A DNA stretch of 64,000 nt from Branchiostoma lanceolatum (lineage: Eukaryota): contig NC_089740.1 of assembly GCF_035083965.1 (NCBI RefSeq), positions 9,172,596 to 9,236,595 on the forward strand. Direction: 5' to 3'. Of this stretch, positions 35,528-55,587 are shown piece by piece. Both the position numbers and the translations under genes were made by a program. Each line of letters starts with the position of its first letter. The stretch's first letter is position 1. Below the pieces are notes generated by a model. It did not search any database and was not told where the DNA came from. It saw only the letters and a program-made list of their open reading frames with translations.

Positions 35528-36016
35528 ATGTTAAGGTCCAGAATTACCAATATGTATATTCAAACTTTCTGTCACAATTTGAGTATTGATACTGGCAAGC
35601 TAAGGTTTTATAAGACATGCAAAACAACTTATTCCATGGAAAAATATTTAGAATTAGATAACTTCAATTTACGCTCTGCAATTAGCAAAATTAGAATTGG
35701 TGCCTATCCCCTTAAACTTGAAAAAGGGCGGTACAAGCCTGAACTTACCTGTGTGCAAAAGAATTTGTATATAATATACTGCATGTCAAACAAGGTGGAA
35801 GACGAAACACATTTTATGTCAAGTTGCCCACTCTACGACCACGAAAGAAATGAGCTCTTTAAAGAGGCCACCACATTTCATCCTAATTTCTCCACGTTTT
35901 CAGACGAAAAGAAAACTACTCTCCTCTTAACATCACAAAAACCACATATCAACGTTACAGAAAAAGTGGGATCATTCGTCTTCCACTGTCTCGGGAAAAG
36001 AAGTCGAACCCAATAG
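35528..36016 (+). mobile_element. Non-LTR retrotransposon (LINE) ORF2 C-terminal fragment
   Basis: ORF 35528-36016 contains ..CMSNKVEDETHFMSSCPLYDHERNELF.., a C-x(n)-H-x4-C-type Cys/His knuckle typical of the 3' end of LINE ORF2. No RT core is present in the window, so this is a truncated relic. Confidence 0.35.
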
Positions 36017-37169
36017 GTTAGAACCTAGTGGCAATAGTTAAGAATAGAGTAGTCATATGTTATACTGTTCATTATTGTCTGTCTGTCCACACCGTGTTAC
36101 ATGTACATGTACTTGCAATTAGCCTACGGGCAGGAATTTGCAATAAACTTTCATTGTTTCGTGTGTAAACATTTAACATCTGAACAAACGGCAACGAAAA
36201 CATAACCTTCTTGGCCGGCAAATGTAAAAGAAATATACAAAATGTAACAGGATGCGTTTGCATGAAGACTTTAGCTACAAATGTAGGGCGCCGGCATTTT
36301 TGCGTTTACCGTTTGGAGATTGAAGTTAAGACTTTAGGCTACTAATTCAACTGTGTGATCATACGTTAGCAATAGCTTATTCCAGTGAGATCATTTGGTA
36401 ATATGGTTTAATATACGCACACAACCCAATTCTAATACATAACGTCAACGTTCAGTATCGTTGTCATGCAAGAGTTATTGTTATTAAATTGGTACAAAGA
36501 ACGTTAATACACAGTGATGTACAGAACTGATTTGATAAACTGCATTCACGTCACAATGAAATTATATTTTCTGTGATCTATTTCCTTTACTGAGAGATCC
36601 CTGAAAACACGTTCAAAGAAGAATTATCGCCTAAATTGTTTGCTGCAACATTTGATTACCAAAGCGGATCAAATTTAGAATAACCTTTCGGAACATCAGT
36701 CAGTGACGTATTATTAATTATGGAACTATATTGATCGCCGCAAACTAACAACATAAGATAAACATATGGTCCTTTGATATGATCACGTTTCTAATAAGCT
36801 TTCAGAACTACATACGCATGTGTACTCTGCCTGTGGGCTGTGGAGAGAGGAAGCGGCGACAGCTTGTGCACCAGGGCCAATGAAGTATGGTATATGACCT
36901 GATTTAAAAACTAACGCACGCACTTTTAAGCAAATTCTAGTGTTCCCAAAGACGAAACATCAAAAGGAAGCAGATGTGGCATGGTGTATCATATCACTTG
37001 CCAAAGTCAGAATTGTTGAACAGAGGTCCTTGTAGCCTGGTCACCAGTCTCTATAGCTACGGGTCGAATAGAAGTATTTTCCTGGGCCCAGTCTGCTATA
37101 TTGACACGTTTCTGTTAGTGTCATAAAATAGCGATAATCGGTTCTATTCAGTGAACGAAGTTGACGGAA

Positions 37170-37814
37170 TCTACGGAGGAGAGCTGACCAAAGACTAACA
37201 GCAACGATGAGATATTTGAACGTTGAAAACGTAAACAACAGAGACGGGGGCGACATAGGTTATCTGGTACCCGCTGCTGTGGTAGTCGGTTTCATTTTGT
37301 GAACAAGGTTGATGGAGATAAGAGAGGAGAGCAGACCAAAGACTGGCAGCAACGATGATACATTTAAACGCTGATGAATCGTCCCCATTACTTTACAGCT
37401 AACAATATGTCTTAGAGCTGGTTATTCATAAACGCATGGATAGCCCATTAGGACCTTCGTCATCAGAGAAAAAAGCAGACCAAAGACTGGAAGCAATGAT
37501 GATACATTTGAACGATGAGACGGTCCCTTAAAACATCGTCATTCAGATTTCGTTAGCAGCCAATCACGAACAGCTTACCATGTGTCTTAGAGAAATTAGG
37601 ACCTTCGTCATCAGAAAGTAGAGCCGACGAAAGACTGGCAGCAATGTTTAGACATTTGAACGATGAGACGGTCCCTTATAAAACATCGCCATTCAGATTT
37701 GTTTCGTAGCCAATCACGAACAGCTTACTTTTCGTCTTAGAGCTGGTTGTTCGTAGACGTATAAATAGTGCATTAGGACCTTCGTCACCCGAAAACAGAA
37801 GACTGGCAGCAACG
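37170..37814 (+). repeat. Tandem array (about 145 bp unit, 4-5 copies) of promoter/5'-end-like modules ending in the real start of the prokineticin-like gene
   Basis: Units begin at about 37190, 37337, 37480, 37625 and 37797. Each has gac[c/g]aaagactgg[c/a]agcaa[c/t]gatgat, then a CCAAT motif (agccaatcacgaacagcttac) and a TATA-like motif (cccttaTAAAAcatcg). The last unit carries the ATGATG of exon 1. Confidence 0.65.
37700..37814 (+). promoter_or_regulatory. Core promoter of the prokineticin-like gene (CCAAT about 37710, TATAAATA 37760-37767)
   Basis: agCCAATcacgaa and acgTATAAATAgtg lie 50-105 bp upstream of the ATG at 37815. The same module recurs in the upstream tandem repeats. Confidence 0.4.
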
Positions 37815-37907
37815 ATGATGGTGGACCAAGCTTGGCGTGCGGCCGCGGCAACGATTCTTCTTACTCAGCTGGTTCTACAAGGATCGGGAGCTATCGTCAT
37901 GACTGGG
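37815..37907 (+). CDS. prokineticin/Bv8 (AVIT)-like peptide gene exon 1 (signal peptide plus AIVMTG)
   Basis: ATGATG at 37815 and TATAAATA at 37760. Translates MMVDQAWRAAAATILLTQLVLQGSG|AIVMTG, a hydrophobic signal peptide followed by an AVITGA-like motif. Donor GGG|gtaggt, phase 0. Confidence 0.55.
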
Positions 37908-39871
37908 GTAGGTTTGCGCTGTTTCATACACCACTCCCCAACTTCATCAATCATTCTCTTCGTCCCTAGAGTAATATTCAAAGCATAAATCCTAGTCTTT
38001 CACGGGATAAATTGTATTCCGCTACCTTTCTTACTCATACAATAATAACATCATCTTCGTTCCCAGTATAATATTCAAGGCAGTAAACCATATTTACTAG
38101 ACCAATAGTCTTGTTCCAAGTCTTTCTTGTCTCCCGTCACTCTGTTCTTGTTCATGTTGTATCAGGTGTGCGTCTCTTTTCCTTCCGGATCTAGGAAACC
38201 TTGTGTCAAAATGGTATCTAAAACATTTAGTCGACAAGCGATGCTTGTTATTGACGATATATCCTAGATGTGCATGTCATATATATATACAAGCGTAACA
38301 GCCTTGAATAGATCACGAATATCATTTCTTAAATTATGTATATTCTCGGATCGAAACGCCCCAATATGTTACACATAGAGAAGATTTGTAACATACAACA
38401 CATACAATACCGTCAATCAGTCTGTTGTTAGACCAAAAAATGTAATAAAATGATCTACTGAACAAGCAAGCAATCATATATGACACGTTTGAAATTTTCC
38501 TGGTCGTGGATTTGGTAAAGTGGTTCATTCACCATACAGTTGTTTACAATATGTTTGCCAACTTTCAATGGTACGGTTATCAGTAATTTCTCGTCAGGGT
38601 CTGTGTTTGCCCGATATTGAAATCTAGATGAAATATACTGAAATGGCCATTCAGTCTATGACATTTATTCATCAAAAATTCCCTACATTCCTTGTTCATT
38701 AGAAATTCTCAAAATTCTTTGTTATTTACAAATTCCTTGTGCCACATATTCATCTATTAGATGGGTTGGGTATACTCCAAGGCAATATGTCTTCACATGT
38801 GCCAACACGTTGATCCCATTGAACAGGATGCTTAAGTTAAGAAGTTATTGACTGTAAGGAGCCATTGACGTCTATCTGAACACCTCTTAAACATAATGGA
38901 CGTCAACAAAGTGCTGTTAATGCGAAGCCCATTGCGGCTGGAGTGGTCTTGTGTGAAGAAGCGTTAATGACTACAATCACTAACGTCCTACGCAAGGTCA
39001 TTATTGATGAACATAATTTCACGTTGCTCAAGAAGACGTGGGATTTTATAATCACCACTTTGATTGCAATTTACGACAATTTATGGCAATTTACGTCCAA
39101 TTCATATTCCAACACGTCATCGTTTCAATCCTCTATCTACATGATATTGTGACGCTTGGTTGAAATCACATTTACATCAATGTTTTTGCGTACGAGTACG
39201 GCGACGTAATTCTATTATTGTTCAAAAAAGGGCCTGCCTACCCCGAGGCATTACCTACAAACTTAGTAATACGATCTATTCATCTTTCCTTAATGTCATC
39301 TCCTACTCTGGTCAGAGTAATTCGAATACATTAAGACGCTTTGAAAATCTATAATGAAGCTCATGATTGAATCTATACCAAGTTATCTGAGAATTAACAG
39401 ACGTTTAAGATGACGTCCGGCGGCATCCTTATTCGGTGATCTAAGGAAACTGTTTTCATTCATATTTATAGAATATAGAACGCAGGACTCTTACTTATGT
39501 ACTGTATAGAAATGAATAAAAACTTCCAACAAGACATTCTTTTCTGGAAAATTGTAATGCATTTTGTAAACTTTGCTTTCGTTAATTCGAATACTCAACA
39601 AACTTTCAAGTAACGCCTTGGCCCTCTTAGAAAAATGACGCACTCACTTCAGTACCACGGGAAAGCAAGGGATTTTTTTTAGCCAGCGGTCACTACGGAG
39701 GCTGATACTCGTTGTTAGCAAGGGATTTGTTTTGAGCCAGCTGTCACTACGGAGGCTGGTACTCAGGCTATTTCAGTACTGGGTCAATGCAAATGACTTT
39801 ATACACGTTAAGATGTACTAGTATATCTATCAAGCCTCTTTATGATTTTATCATTTCTCACACCTATACAG

Positions 39872-40017
39872 GTGTGCCAAAATGATGTGGAGTGCATGGC
39901 AGGGCGAGGTGAAGGGTCATGCTGCGCTTCCTTCGTCAAATCCGGGATACTTTCAGGGATTCCTATCTGCAAACCGCCTGCAGGGGAAGGAGATGACTGT
40001 CACCTCATCCTTGAGGC
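39872..40017 (+). CDS. prokineticin/Bv8-like gene exon 2 (Cys 1-6)
   Basis: Acceptor cacctatacag|GTG and proposed donor GAGGC|gttagt, phase 2. Translates VCQNDVECMAGRGEGSCCASFVKSGILSGIPICKPPAGEGDDCHLILE (compare Bv8/PROK [36 protein letters not shown]). Lies in ORF 39842-40132. Confidence 0.7.
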
Positions 40018-40909: not shown

Positions 40910-41036
40910 CTTTGTCCCGTACCCGCACGACAGCCCGCGGTACTACTGGCAGTGTCCCTGCGGGCCGGGTTTGACCTGTCTGCCCGTCAAACGCGGGGAC
41001 GTCATCGGCAAATGCTGGAGGCCAAGACGTGGCTGA
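40910..41036 (+). CDS. prokineticin/Bv8-like gene exon 3 (Cys 7-10, stop)
   Basis: Acceptor tgttttgtttccacag|C, phase 2. Translates AFVPYPHDSPRYYWQCPCGPGLTCLPVKRGDVIGKCWRPRRG then TGA at 41034-41036 (compare PROK ..[22 protein letters not shown]..C). This frame is not in the ORF track because it is shorter than 60 aa. Confidence 0.65.
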
Positions 41037-41379: not shown

Positions 41380-42440
41380 GCATCGTAAGTGGACGATGGA
41401 TGATCTTTTACGACCTCTCTGACGTGCGTAATGTTTCAACACAATCTGTCCATATTCAACAGGACTGGTTGATTCTCGTTATTATCTGACCTTTACATTG
41501 TAACACACCAAGGCTAACATAAGACCTTTTGACGTAATGTTTTAACGGGTTCTGCCCCTTTTGTTCAGGTTCAGTTGATCTTTGTCACTATCTAACCTTA
41601 ATATTGTAACGTGCACCAAGGCTAACATTATTATTATTATTATTAAACGTATAATGACGTGTGGGCATAGACGATCGCAGTTATATCTCACGACTTTTTG
41701 ACGTACGCAATGTTTTAACAGGTTTTGTCTGGGCTAGTTTGATCTTCGTCATTATCTGACCTTATCATTGTAAAATGCATCAACGCTAACATCATTAGGT
41801 TCAGGACATACTGTGACATATTGCTATCAAGATGGTGCTTTGAATAAACTAAGATCTCTTGTTGACCCGCATTAGGTTTTATCAGATTCTGCCCATTCAT
41901 ATCAGGACTATTTGATCTTCGTCATTATCTGGCATAACCATGGTAAAATTCACCAATACCAACATCATTATCTCATCATATAGTCTTGACATTGCGCTAT
42001 CACCAAGAGGTCGAAAATGGACGATGTATGATCTTTTATGACCTTATTGACGTAGACAATGCATTAGCAGATTCCATCCATTTTTATCGGAACTGGGTGA
42101 TCTTAAGCTTCGTCATTATCTGACCTAACCTTTGTAAAATTCATCAATACCAACATTATTATCTCTGAGTCATCACATAGTGTGGGCATTGCACTTTTAC
42201 AAAGACGTCGAAAATGGACGATGTATGATCCTTTATGACCTCATTGACGTAGACGATACATTAGCAGATTCTTAAGGTTCATCATTATCTCATCATATAG
42301 TGTGGGCATTGCGCTATCACTAAGGTGTTGAAAATGGACGATCTTTCATGACCTCATGGACGTGGGAAATGCATTAGCAGATTCTATCCATCTTTGTCAA
42401 GACTAGTAGAGCTTCGTGATTATGTGGCATTGTAAAATAC
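41380..42440. repeat. Minisatellite/satellite-like tandem repeat (about 115 bp unit, about 9 copies) downstream of prokineticin-like gene
   Basis: Repeated units: ..gacct[c/t]..tgacgt[a/g][c/g][ag]caatg[tc]tt[ta]a[ac]a..t[ct]tg[tc]cc....ttgatct[tc]cgtcattatctgacct.a.c.ttgtaa[ac]a[tc][gt]ca[tc]caa[gt][gc]ctaacat[ct]att. Includes an (ATT)7 tract at 41628-41650. Confidence 0.65.
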
Positions 42441-45699: not shown

Positions 45700-45910
45700 G
45701 TGGGACATCTCTCTCTCTCTATCTCTCCCTCTCCCTCTCTCTCTCTCGCTCCCTCTCTCTCCCTCTCTTTCTCTCTTTTCTCTCTCCTCTCTCTTGCTTC
45801 TCTCTCTCTCGCTTCTCTCTCTCTCGCTTCTCTCTCTCTCGCTTCTCTCTCTCTCGCTTCTCTCTCGCTTCTCTCTCGCTTCTCTCTCTTTTCTCCCTCT
45901 CTTTCTCACT
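45700..45910. repeat. (CT)n / (CGCTTCTCTCTCTCT)n compound microsatellite in GH1 copy 1 intron 6
   Basis: ctctctctctatctctccctctccc...cgcttctctctctctcgcttctctctctct... It generates the spurious [10 protein letters not shown] and LSLSLS ORFs on both strands. Confidence 0.85.
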
Positions 45911-46075
45911 GTCTTCTCATCTCTCTTTTGATATATTAGATAGATAAACAGAGAGACTGGCATAGATAGCTTTGAATTTGGAGAGTAATAGACAAGGTAC
46001 AATATCTCCTTCTATGTTCACCAACAACCCCTATTCTATCAAAGGTGTGATATGTAGACAGCGATGGTATTTTAC

Positions 46076-46324: not shown

Positions 46325-46409
46325 GACATTGCAGGTAGATACAAGTAGATAGATGGATAGATAGATAGATAGATAGATAGATAGACAGACAGATAGATAG
46401 ATAGATAGG

Positions 46410-46485
<76 letters not shown>

Positions 46486-46525
46486 CGGAGAGATAGACGG
46501 AGAGATAGACGGAGAAATAGACGGA
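46325..46525. repeat. (GATA)n microsatellite, about 45 units, GH1 copy 1 intron 4 (absent from copy 2)
   Basis: agatagatagatagatagacagacagatagatag... It generates the spurious [11 protein letters not shown] ORFs. Confidence 0.85.
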
Positions 46526-46582
46526 GAAATAATGGATACAATGCGATGTTATACGCATCTGAAAATAGATGAAAGTACCCAC

Positions 46583-55289: not shown

Positions 55290-55316
55290 GCCGTCTCTCT
55301 CTCTCTCTCTCTCTCT

Positions 55317-55364
<48 letters not shown>

Positions 55365-55410
55365 ATTTCTCTCTCTTTTTGCCCTCTCTTTCTCGCTATC
55401 TTTTCTCTCT
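55290..55410. repeat. (CT)n microsatellite in GH1 copy 2 intron 6
   Basis: ctctctctctctctctctctagctctctctctctctctct... Confidence 0.85.
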
Positions 55411-55587
55411 CTCTCCCTCACTCCTTTGAGGAATGATAGATATACACGAGAGACTGGTATTAATAGTCTTGAATTTGAGGAGTCACAGACAAGGTACAGT
55501 AGTTCTGCCTCGTGTATTGCAAACGGCGACAATAACCATCCTATATTTTTACGTTGCCATGTTATGTAGACAGTGAGGATATTTCAC

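What the first reader, a model, noticed from the sequence alone, without database searches (positions are those of the whole stretch)
37170..37814. Four to five tandem copies of a promoter-plus-start-codon module immediately upstream of the prokineticin-like gene
The roughly 145-bp unit is repeated head-to-tail and ends in the real exon 1. Each unit carries a CCAAT box (agccaatcacgaacagcttac), a TATA-like element (cccttaTAAAAcatcg, or TATAAATA in the last unit) and the ATGATG start context (gactggcagcaacgATGAT). In the upstream units the ATGATG is followed by ATACATTTGAACGATGAGACGGTCCCTTAA, a short ORF. The units are either tandem alternative promoters and TSSs, or, if transcribed from an upstream unit, a string of uORFs that would repress translation. 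Tandem promoter amplification in front of a cytokine-like gene is unusual and could give copy-number-dependent expression or polymorphism.
Basis: seen in the sequence. Interest (0 to 1): 0.6.

Follow-up and report, generated by a model that had tools for sequence, protein, structure and literature searches.

The report
Conserved tandem promoter copies, amphioxus prokineticin gene
The amphioxus prokineticin-like gene is preceded by a head-to-tail array of about five diverged copies of its own proximal promoter and start codon; the array is real, present in three lancelet species and variable in copy number, but it resembles tandem boundary duplications already known in amphioxus, and no transcript data could be consulted to show what the extra copies do.

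Summary
The repeat is real. Five copies of the core AAGACTGGCAGCAACGATGAT lie 144-168 bp apart (37191-37819), and the last one supplies the ATG at 37815. The window is Branchiostoma lanceolatum. The gene is a 3-exon prokineticin-family gene, 100% identical to the NCBI model.

In the window only 2 of 5 units have CCAAT, and only the last has a TATA box in a usable position.

The same array abuts the ATG in all 7 haplotypes examined, from B. lanceolatum, B. floridae and B. belcheri. A second B. lanceolatum assembly carries 203 bp more, which adds one core and two CCAAT boxes. The unit occurs nowhere else in about 220 kb examined, and not at the paralogue.

Units differ between species by 20-33%, against 39% at 4-fold sites of the neighbouring gene. 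Upstream units keep the NF-Y-type CCAAT box (7/8) but not TATA (3/8) or the ATG (about half).

Best reading (0.5): tandem duplication of the proximal promoter, with one working promoter next to the CDS and the upstream copies acting as extra transcription-factor-site modules. Main rival (0.3): a neutral "mirage"-type amphioxus minisatellite. The TSS is unmapped. Moderate interest; a new variant of a known kind.

The parts
37135..37211 (+). Distal partial unit a0, degenerate, ending in core copy 37191-37211 (AAGACTAACAGCAACGATGAG)
   Evidence: Direct-repeat family D2 links 37135-37226 to 37283-37374 at 77%. Unit HMM hit 37176-37210, E=2.4e-4.
37212..37359 (+). Unit a (148 bp), an old diverged unit with no CCAAT box and no ACGGTCCC block; ends in core 37339-37359
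   Evidence: Unit HMM hit 37213-37358, E=4.5e-18. Motif table.
37360..37503 (+). Unit b (144 bp), a fusion unit. It corresponds to the 5' end of unit b plus the 3' part of unit b2 in the other haplotype. The 203-bp deletion point is at about 37394. CCAAT is lost. Ends in core 37483-37503.
   Evidence: Global alignment with L001 shows a single 203-bp gap at window 37394 / L001 9377, and 97.7% identity elsewhere.
37504..37651 (+). Unit c (148 bp). It has GATGAGACGGTCCC, an NF-Y-type CCAAT box at 37560-37564 (AGCCAATCA) and CTTCGTCATCAG. The ~30-bp block that carries the -30 element is deleted. Ends in core 37631-37651 (CAATGTTTAG).
   Evidence: Unit HMM E=3.8e-40.
37652..37819 (+). Unit d (168 bp), the proximal promoter. 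CCAAT is at 37710-37714 and TATAAATA at 37760-37767. The predicted start is near the CA at 37786-37787, inferred from TATA spacing and not measured. The leader is about 28 nt and the ATG is at 37815. Repeat homology ends after ATGAT (37819).
   Evidence: Sequence. Unit HMM 37652-37818, E=9.5e-45. Alignment.
37815..37907 (+). Exon 1 CDS (31 codons): signal peptide plus AIVMTG; donor GT at 37908
   Evidence: The spliced product is 100% identical to P0001.
39872..40017 (+). Exon 2 (146 nt) with the first six cysteines of the prokineticin domain
40910..41036 (+). Exon 3 CDS to the stop codon (TGA at 41034-41036), with the last four cysteines

Best explanation
The ~150-175-bp segment from about -165 to +5 of the start codon is the gene's proximal promoter, short leader and ATG.

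Its parts, 5' to 3', are:
- the block GATGA(A/G)ACGGTCCCTTAAA;
- a CGTCA half-site;
- an NF-Y-type CCAAT box, AGCCAATCA;
- an ACGT-containing -30 element, which is TATAAATA only in B. lanceolatum;
- the block CTTCGTCA(T/C)C;
- the leader and the ATG.

This segment was duplicated head-to-tail, most parsimoniously before the three Branchiostoma species split. The array has since been turned over by unequal exchange, deletion and partial homogenisation.

Only the copy that abuts the coding sequence is proposed to act as the promoter. The two to four better-preserved upstream copies have largely lost the -30 element and often the ATG. They keep the CCAAT box and other short blocks at roughly nucleosome-length spacing. 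The proposal is that they add transcription-factor sites, like a repeated proximal enhancer, so that changes in copy number would change output.

Shown: the structure, the boundary at the ATG, presence in 3 species and 7 haplotypes, the copy-number difference, the motif-retention pattern, and lower-than-neutral divergence.

Inferred: the TSS position, factor binding, any effect on expression, and that the conservation is due to selection.
For: 1. The unit profile hits only the arrays that end at ATG +4..+7 in every haplotype: window; L001; L002 and L007 (B. floridae); L003, L008 and L009 (B. belcheri). E-values run from 1e-16 to 1e-48. It hits nothing else in the window or in nine 7.6-24 kb loci, including the paralogue loci L004-L006.

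2. The array is the main conserved non-coding block at the locus. In a 3-species alignment the flanks and introns show 20-51% identity, mostly 30-45. The array shows 59-68% for B. lanceolatum vs B. floridae in 6 of the 7 100-bp bins. Exon 1 shows 80%. BLAST finds almost nothing else alignable with B. belcheri outside the exons.

3. Full-length units of different species are 67-80% identical over 110-180 aligned nt. 4-fold sites of the neighbouring BTB-ZF gene differ by 39% (201 sites) between B. lanceolatum and B. floridae.

4. In B. floridae the upstream units are no closer to their own proximal unit (70-78%) than to B. lanceolatum units (67-79%). Recent conversion from the proximal unit therefore does not explain their preservation there.

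5. Retention is selective in the 8 non-degenerate upstream units: CCAAT 7/8, ACGGTCCC 6/8, CTTCGTCATCAG 6/8, TATA-like 3/8, core ATG about half. AGCCAATCATAA is the best-conserved block among upstream units (0.81).

6. One block, CATCAGAGAAAAGAGCAGACCAAAG, is conserved among upstream units of different species (0.60-0.71). It is not conserved among the three proximal units (0.08-0.22). The upstream copies are therefore not simply decaying or converted images of the proximal one.

7. CpG observed/expected is about 1.0-1.1 in the array in all species, against 0.46-0.80 for the loci as a whole. This support is weak.

8. Precedent: five ~150-bp tandem promoter repeats in Phaseolus G564, each carrying a working cis-regulatory module and conserved between two species (PMC4441743).

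That AGCCAATCA matches the NF-Y consensus is from my own knowledge. It was not tested.
Against: - No TSS, CAGE, RNA-seq, ATAC or ChIP data could be consulted, so the single-TSS claim rests on TATA/CCAAT geometry in one species.
- The -30 element is not a TATA box in the proximal unit of B. floridae (TGACGTAACATC) or B. belcheri (GACGTGTAGATAG).
- Species-specific variants shared by several units show concerted evolution. Examples are TGAGTGGCAT in B. belcheri and GGACCTTCG in B. lanceolatum. Concerted evolution can keep copies alike without selection on each one.
- Within-species diversity in the array (1-8%) is no lower than in the adjacent intron.
- One B. lanceolatum haplotype has lost 203 bp, including two of four CCAAT boxes. 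The distal copies are therefore dispensable at least in heterozygotes.
- The most distal units are clearly decaying.
- The motif-conservation arguments are partly post hoc. The best block was chosen among about 30 windows.
Confidence: 0.5

Rival explanations
1. Neutral 'mirage'-type minisatellite. Amphioxus genes are prone to tandem duplication of short segments that span a gene-feature boundary. Here the segment happens to be the promoter/ATG boundary. Only the last copy matters. The upstream copies are passengers, kept recognisable by unequal exchange and conversion with the constrained proximal copy.
For: - Mirages are documented in amphioxus Adh3, TnC, globin and PGBD5 genes.
- In globin BflGb6 the units are 150-160 bp. 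The authentic copy sits at one end, haplotypes carry 3 versus 6 copies, and there is concerted evolution with the edge units excluded (PMC3087553; PMC3902484). Topology, unit size and behaviour are the same here.
- Copy number differs between haplotypes here.
- Distal units are the most diverged.
- Several units share species-specific variants.
- Polymorphism in the array is not reduced relative to the intron.
Against: - Unit identities are far lower (61-88% among the full-length units) than in reported mirages (81-100%).
- The array is present at the same place in three species that split about 72-87 Mya by one estimate (PMC6305399). Neutral sites have meanwhile diverged by 39%.
- B. floridae upstream units are no closer to their own proximal unit than to B. 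lanceolatum units.
- One block is conserved among upstream units but not in proximal ones.
- Copy number is identical in the 2 B. floridae and the 3 B. belcheri haplotypes.
Confidence: 0.3
2. Tandem alternative promoters. Several units initiate transcription. Transcripts from upstream units read through the downstream units and carry multiple uATGs and uORFs that lower translation of the prokineticin ORF.
For: - Each well-preserved unit keeps the would-be initiator/leader block CTTCGTCATCAGAG...AGACCAAAGACTGG. This block is better conserved in upstream units than in the proximal one.
- L001 unit b has CATAAATA and B. floridae unit a has TATAAAC at the -30 position.
- A 13-codon ORF, M(K/R)RSLK(S/T)SSF(R/K)F*, recurs from the second ATG of units in all three species. 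Its stop falls at the same codon in 5 of 8 copies.
Against: - A TATA-like element is present in only 3 of 8 upstream units, and the -30 block is deleted in window unit c.
- The core uATG is lost in most B. floridae units: CGATTGA, AATAATAAA.
- The two recurrent short ORFs overlap in different frames.
- Changes by codon position are 8/8/12, which is no coding signature.
- The shared stop is the TTAG of the conserved CCAAT flank TTAGCAGCCAAT, so conservation at the DNA level explains it.
- No transcript contig carrying the protein was on record besides genome assemblies.
Confidence: 0.13
3. Classical mirage inside a 5'-UTR intron. The ATG exon would not be the first exon. The conserved CAG|CAA(C/T)GATG just before the ATG would be a 3' splice site, and the array would be a tandem duplication of an intron/exon boundary.
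For: - An AG lies 2-6 nt before the ATG in all three species: TGGCAG|CAACGATG, TGACAG|CAATGATG, CTTGCAG|CAATGATG.
- All previously described mirages span splice sites.
Against: - The 20 nt before that AG are purine-rich in B. lanceolatum (GAAAACAGAAGACTGGCAG) and B. floridae. The two real acceptors of this gene have strong pyrimidine tracts: tcatttctcacacctatacag and tgttttgtttccacag.
- CCAAT at about -105 and TATAAATA at -55 from the ATG fit a promoter.
- From my own knowledge, vertebrate prokineticin genes start translation in exon 1.
Confidence: 0.04
4. Copy of a dispersed repeat or transposable element, or an assembly artefact, unrelated to the gene.
For: - The whole genome could not be searched with the tools available.
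- Unit length is typical of satellite monomers.
Against: - There is no other copy in the 64-kb window or in nine other amphioxus loci, about 220 kb in all.
- There is no tRNA or Rfam match.
- The array sits at the orthologous position, ending at the ATG, in seven independently assembled haplotypes. This holds even in B. belcheri, where the upstream neighbour gene differs.
Confidence: 0.03

Closest known systems
Amphioxus 'mirage' minisatellites (Adh3, troponin C, globins BflGb6/BflGb9, PGBD5)
   Same: - Same animal group.
- Head-to-tail copies of a short segment that straddles a gene-feature boundary, with the authentic copy at the gene-proximal end.
- Unit size: 150-160 bp in BflGb6 and 157 bp in BflGb9, against 144-175 bp for most units here.
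- Copy number differs between haplotypes, and there is concerted evolution with diverged edge units (PMC3087553; PMC3902484).
   Different: - Described mirages span exon/intron boundaries. This one spans the 5' flank/start-codon boundary and contains the promoter.
- Reported units are 81-100% identical and considered unstable. Here the full-length units are 61-88% identical.
- This array is shared by three species and has the same copy number in all B. floridae and all B. belcheri haplotypes seen.
Tandem ~150-bp promoter repeats of the Phaseolus G564 gene
   Same: - About five ~150-bp repeats lie directly upstream of one gene.
- Each repeat carries the same set of short cis elements with some differences.
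- The repeats are conserved in a sister species and absent from related genes (PMC4441743).
- This is the closest precedent for how the array may work.
   Different: - It is a plant gene.
- The repeats there are upstream modules and are not reported to include the start codon.
- Function there was shown by reporter assays. Here nothing is tested.
- Conservation there spans about 2 My, against tens of My here.
Tandem promoter duplication of Tetrahymena MTT5
   Same: Duplication of a promoter segment carrying repeated factor-site motifs, discussed as a cause of higher expression (PMC4862169).
   Different: Two copies of 416 bp at 96% identity, which makes it a young duplication. It does not reach the start codon, and cross-species conservation is not shown.
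Spacer promoters and enhancer repeats of Xenopus and Drosophila rDNA; promoter VNTRs and yeast promoter tandem repeats (from my own knowledge, not checked here)
   Same: Upstream tandem copies derived from the gene promoter that raise or tune transcription from the gene-proximal promoter. Copy number is variable.
   Different: The rDNA cases use RNA polymerase I in multicopy genes. VNTRs usually have much shorter units and do not reproduce the whole promoter plus start codon.

Membership tests
Amphioxus mirage minisatellite | Minisatellite-like head-to-tail repeats within or at an amphioxus gene, with the authentic copy at one end of the array | tested here: met
   Five cores at 144-168-bp spacing, with the last copy continuing into the CDS.
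Amphioxus mirage minisatellite | The repeat unit spans an exon/intron boundary (splice site) | tested here: not met
   The unit spans the 5' flank/leader/ATG. The only candidate acceptor (CAG|CAACGATG) lacks a pyrimidine tract, unlike the gene's two real acceptors. cDNA would settle it.
Amphioxus mirage minisatellite | Length instability: a different copy number in different haplotypes | tested here: met
   A 203-bp indel gives 5 versus 6 cores between the window and L001. No whole-unit difference was seen among 2 B. floridae or 3 B. belcheri haplotypes.
Amphioxus mirage minisatellite | Concerted evolution within the array, with edge units excluded | tested here: met
   B. belcheri units b, c and d cluster together. 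B. lanceolatum units b2, c and d are 83-88% alike. The distal units a are the most diverged.
Amphioxus mirage minisatellite | High identity between units (81-100% in BflGb6), that is a young array | tested here: not met
   61-88% within a species among the full-length units. Between-species identity is similar to within-species identity in B. floridae.
Tandem promoter repeats acting as repeated cis-regulatory modules (G564 type) | A ~150-bp unit repeated in tandem in the proximal upstream region, each copy carrying the same short motifs | tested here: met
   CCAAT in 7 of 8, ACGGTCCC in 6 of 8 and CTTCGTCATCAG in 6 of 8 upstream units.
Tandem promoter repeats acting as repeated cis-regulatory modules (G564 type) | Repeats conserved in related species and absent from related genes | tested here: met
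   Present in 3 species and 7 haplotypes. Absent at the paralogue loci L004-L006.
Tandem promoter repeats acting as repeated cis-regulatory modules (G564 type) | Individual repeats drive or enhance transcription in reporter assays | not testable with these tools
   Needs an experiment.
uORF-mediated translational control | The uATGs lie inside the transcribed leader | not testable with these tools
   No TSS or cDNA data were reachable. Only genome contigs carry the protein.
uORF-mediated translational control | uATG or uORF conserved across species, with a coding signature if peptide-dependent | tested here: not met
   The core uATG is kept in about half of the upstream units. Codon-position changes are 8/8/12.
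Prokineticin/AVIT family (identity of the gene) | Prokineticin domain match above Pfam's threshold, with ten cysteines | tested here: met
   PF06607: 52 bits against a 21.6 cut-off, E=9e-14. Ten Cys in the spliced product.
Prokineticin/AVIT family (identity of the gene) | Mature N-terminus AVITGA (required for receptor activation in vertebrates; from my own knowledge) | tested here: not met
   The sequence is AIVMTGVC, or AIIMTGVC in B. floridae. This is one residue longer. The signal-peptide cleavage site was not predicted.

The most novel reading that the evidence does not exclude
A boundary duplication of the amphioxus 'mirage' type captured an entire proximal promoter plus start codon. It has been kept as a multi-copy array since before the Branchiostoma species split (about 87 Mya by one estimate). 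The upstream copies would be under their own selective constraint: a CCAAT box, plus a block conserved only in upstream copies. On this reading, promoter copies have been converted into a repeated enhancer whose dose is polymorphic. This would make an otherwise 'junk' class of lancelet minisatellites a source of conserved cis-regulatory architecture.
Probability: 0.35. Interest if true: 0.55.

Novelty: new variant of a known kind. Interest (0 to 1): 0.4.

Why it matters
If the upstream copies are functional, this is a clean natural case of a regulatory array built by tandem duplication of a complete proximal promoter. It offers a built-in allelic series (5 versus 6 cores, and 2 versus 4 CCAAT boxes, in one species) and three species for comparison. 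It sits in front of a homologue of the vertebrate prokineticins. It would also extend the amphioxus 'mirage' phenomenon from splice junctions to the promoter/start-codon boundary, and show that such arrays can persist for tens of millions of years. If the copies are neutral, the finding is a further, unusually old, example of a known lancelet minisatellite habit. It is also a caution for gene and TSS annotation, because repeated ATG-containing pseudo-starts sit upstream of the real one.

Tried and rejected
- Rfam at permissive threshold, and tRNA scan, over 36000-39000: nothing. The units are therefore not a known RNA gene or a tRNA-derived SINE.
- Unit BLAST and profile against the whole window and all fetched loci: no dispersed copies.
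- tblastn of the protein: no second prokineticin gene and no duplicated exon-1 coding sequence in the window.
- Paralogue loci (P0005, P0006): a single-copy promoter of different sequence and no array. The unit is not a family-wide promoter module.
- Transcript evidence: the protein and its cluster members are on record only from genome assemblies. No 5' UTR could be read.
- Within-species diversity of the array against its flanks: no reduction, so uninformative.
- Positional orthology of units between species: the neighbour-joining tree and identity matrix do not resolve it.
- Coding test of the recurrent short ORFs: no signal.
- CpG observed/expected: the array is not depleted, but neither is intron 1, so the support is only weak.
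- One literature query was too broad and returned nothing useful.
- The original mirage paper (PMC117041) is not held. It is cited only through PMC3087553 and PMC3902484.
- PMC5430900 gave no dates with my search terms.
- The bacterial promoter/terminator scanner, the structure tools and the prokaryotic or viral collections were not used, because they do not apply to an animal promoter.
Full report
**What is in the sequence**

Reading 36800-38400 and running the repeat finders shows a head-to-tail array directly 5' of an ATG at 37815.

- The most sharply repeated piece is the 21-mer AAGACTGGCAGCAACGATGAT. It lies at 37191, 37339, 37483, 37631 and 37799, with spacing 148, 144, 148 and 168.
- With up to 3 mismatches it is found 4 times in the 64-kb window, against 0.00 expected.
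- Units 37447-37592 and 37595-37742 are 86% identical (E=1.7e-44).
- The more distal units are only 61-77% like the others. That is why TRF reports just two copies.
- Homology begins weakly at about 37135 and ends after ATGAT at 37819, five bases into the coding sequence.
- With the register starting after ATGAT, the array is a partial unit (37135-37211) followed by four full units: a 37212-37359, b 37360-37503, c 37504-37651 and d 37652-37819.

**The gene and the organism**

- Cysteine-rich ORF fragments downstream and the splice sites give a three-exon gene: 37815-37907, 39872-40017 and 40910-41036.
- The 121-aa product is 100% identical over its full length to the NCBI protein 'prokineticin Bm8-f-like [Branchiostoma lanceolatum]'.
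- It matches Pfam Prokineticin PF06607 at E=9e-14.
- Orthologues exist in B. floridae (81% identity) and B. belcheri (77%).
- A 43%-identical paralogue also exists.

- CCAAT (AGCCAATCACGAACAGCT) is present only in units c and d (37560, 37710).
- The 'cccttaTAAAAcatcg' element occurs once (37672-87). It lies upstream of the CCAAT box rather than about 30 bp before a start. In the other haplotype it reads TTAAA.
- A TATA box in a sensible position (TATAAATA, 37760-67, 55 bp before the ATG) exists only in unit d. The corresponding block is deleted in unit c and reads CATAAACGCATGGATAG in unit b.
- ATGATG occurs at 37496 and 37815 only.
- Each unit opens different short ORFs.
- So the units are copies of a promoter-plus-start-codon module, but in the window only the last one is intact.
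- In unit d the geometry is that of an ordinary proximal promoter. CCAAT lies about 105 bp and TATA 55 bp before the ATG. There is a CA about 27 bp after the TATA, and the leader is about 28 nt. The TSS is inferred, not measured.

**Other haplotypes and species**

I fetched the encoding contigs for the protein, its orthologues and their cluster members:
- a second B. lanceolatum assembly (L001, 92-98% identical to the window in the long aligned blocks outside repeats and indels);
- two B. floridae haplotypes (L002, L007);
- three B. belcheri haplotypes (L003, L008, L009).

A profile built from the units hits, in every one of them, a run of units that ends at ATG +4 to +7, and essentially nothing else. 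There were no hits in the rest of the window, in the flanks, or in the three paralogue loci, about 220 kb in total. The paralogue has a single-copy promoter of different sequence.

- The array is therefore not an assembly artefact.
- As far as I could sample, it is not a dispersed repeat, and it is not a feature of the gene family.
- It is tied to this orthologue. This holds even in B. belcheri, where the upstream neighbouring gene is different.
- By one phylogenomic estimate the basal split within Branchiostoma is about 87 Mya, and B. lanceolatum/B. floridae split about 72 Mya. Older estimates are larger (PMC6305399).

**Copy-number variation**

- A global alignment of the window array with L001 is 97.7% identical, apart from one 203-bp gap in the window at 37394.
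- L001 therefore has six cores and four CCAAT boxes. The window has five cores and two CCAAT boxes.
- Window unit b is the fusion of L001 units b and b2. The junction falls in the CCAAT region.
- No whole-unit differences were seen among the B. floridae or B. belcheri haplotypes.

**How the units evolve**

- Pairwise unit identities within species are:
  - B. lanceolatum: 83-88% for b2, c and d; 73-75% for b against those three; 67-71% for a against the others;
  - B. floridae: 69-78%;
  - B. belcheri: 75-82%.
- Between species the full-length units are 67-80% identical. The three proximal units are 75-79% alike.
- 4-fold degenerate sites in the neighbouring BTB-zinc-finger gene differ by 39% between B. 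lanceolatum and B. floridae (201 sites).
- In a three-species alignment the surrounding non-coding DNA sits at 20-51% identity, mostly 30-45. The array sits at 59-68% in 6 of 7 100-bp bins and exon 1 at 80%.
- BLAST finds little else alignable outside the exons.
- Units within a species share species-specific variants, so there is concerted evolution.
- Even so, B. floridae upstream units are no closer to their own proximal unit than to B. lanceolatum units.
- The most distal units in each species are clearly decayed.

**What is kept in the upstream copies**

- In the eight non-degenerate upstream units (one haplotype per species), CCAAT is kept in 7, ACGGTCCC in 6 and CTTCGTCATCAG in 6. A TATA-like element is kept in 3 and the core ATG in about half.
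- The proximal units of B. floridae and B. belcheri have no TATA box at all. What is shared at -30 is an ACGT-containing element.
- A sliding comparison restricted to between-species pairs gives these conservation values:

| Block | Among upstream units | Among proximal units |
|---|---|---|
| AGCCAATCATAA | 0.81 | 0.89 |
| CAGCAATGATGA (start codon) | 0.52 | 0.94 |
| CATCAGAGAAAAGAGCAGACCAAAG | 0.60-0.71 | 0.08-0.22 |

- The last block is the strongest indication that the upstream copies are not just fading or converted images of the working promoter.
- The choice of block is post hoc, however, and the sample is small.

**Short ORFs**

- The second ATG of nearly every unit opens a recurrent 13-codon ORF, M(K/R)RSLK(S/T)SSF(R/K)F*, in all three species. 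This includes the proximal unit, at about -150.
- Substitutions fall 8/8/12 on the three codon positions.
- Its shared stop is the TTAG of the conserved CCAAT flank.
- I see no evidence for a conserved peptide.

**Other checks**

- There is no Rfam or tRNA match.
- CpG observed/expected is about 1.0-1.1 in the array in all species, against 0.46-0.80 for the loci as a whole. Intron 1 is similar, so this is weak support for an unmethylated regulatory region.
- Polymorphism within species is no lower in the array than in the intron.
- A candidate 3' splice site just before the ATG lacks a pyrimidine tract.

**Comparison with what is known**

- Amphioxus genes are known for 'mirages'. These are minisatellite-like tandem duplications that span exon/intron boundaries, described in Adh3, troponin C, globins and PGBD5.
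- In globin BflGb6 the units are 150-160 bp. The authentic copy lies at one end, haplotypes carry 3 versus 6 copies, and concerted evolution spares the edge units (PMC3087553; PMC3902484).
- The present array has the same topology, unit size and behaviour. It differs in three ways: it spans the promoter/start-codon boundary instead of a splice site; it is much more diverged; and it is shared by three species.
- It fails two of the five mirage features I could test. I therefore treat it as a variant, not a member.
- Functionally, the nearest documented precedent is the Phaseolus G564 gene. It has five ~150-bp tandem promoter repeats, each carrying a working cis-regulatory module, and they are conserved in a sister species (PMC4441743).
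- A 416-bp tandem promoter duplication is discussed for Tetrahymena MTT5 (PMC4862169).
- rDNA spacer promoters are a further analogy, from my own knowledge.

**Verdict**

- Most likely (0.5): this is an old tandem duplication of the proximal promoter. One working promoter lies next to the CDS, and the upstream copies serve as extra transcription-factor-site modules.
- Main rival (0.3): a neutral mirage-type minisatellite.
- Tandem TSSs with uORF leaders (0.13) cannot be excluded without transcript 5' ends.
- Interest is moderate. The structure is tidy, conserved and polymorphic, and it offers an easy experiment. It belongs to known kinds of phenomena, and its function is unproven.

Noticed in passing
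window approx. 38835-38920 and 39027-39117 (L001 11020-11103 and 11212-11301): Two short blocks in intron 1 are alignable between species at 72-78% identity. The first aligns to both B. floridae and B. belcheri, the second to B. floridae only. They are otherwise surrounded by unalignable intron. They may be an intronic regulatory element.
   Followed up: no
window 37889-37907 and 39872-39877; alignment A2: The predicted mature N-terminus is AIVMTGVC (AIIMTGVC in B. floridae). This is one residue longer than the vertebrate AVITGAC motif, and it is conserved in three species. The paralogue P0005 has AMVITG. Exon 1 ends right after ...TG, as I recall for vertebrate prokineticin genes.
   Followed up: partly
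window 37515-37556, 37663-37740; L002 9366, 9568, 9692, 9853; L003 9508, 9683, 9851: A short ORF M(K/R)RSLK(S/T)SSF(R/K)F recurs from the second ATG of almost every unit in all three species. It is 13 codons long, with the stop at the same codon, in 5 of 8 copies compared. There is no codon-position signature (8/8/12), so it is probably a by-product of a conserved DNA block.
   Followed up: yes
window 37811-37818 and 37659-37666 (and the same pair in each unit): The 8-mer AACGATGA occurs twice per unit, at the core ATG and 16 nt downstream. In B. belcheri unit c the two copies are collapsed into one. This suggests microhomology-mediated deletion inside the array.
   Followed up: partly
window upstream of about 36100; L002/L007 upstream of about -900; L003/L009 upstream of about -1100 relative to the ATG: Haplotypes of the same species become unalignable a short distance upstream of the array, indicating large indels or structural variants. 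The array and the gene remain collinear.
   Followed up: no
L003 and L008 (B. belcheri) against L001 and L002: The upstream neighbour differs. It is a CTP-transferase-like gene in B. belcheri, but a divergently oriented BTB/zinc-finger gene in B. lanceolatum and B. floridae. A rearrangement breakpoint therefore lies just upstream of the array.
   Followed up: no
window 41917-42271: A 197-bp tandem repeat, 1.8 copies at 85% identity, lies about 0.9 kb 3' of the prokineticin stop codon. It sits between this gene and the convergent glycosyl-hydrolase-1 gene.
   Followed up: no
L004 9780-9900; L005 and L006 9800-9900: The paralogue's single-copy promoter carries TGACGTCA (TGACGTAA in L005/L006) and CACGTCA next to GATAAAT. 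ACGT-core sites next to a TATA-like element are thus shared in kind with the array unit (GACGTATAAATA), although the sequences do not align.
   Followed up: no
window 45708-45926, 46346-46531, 55294-55423: Long (TC)n, (TAGA)n and 12-mer microsatellites, unrelated to the finding.
   Followed up: no
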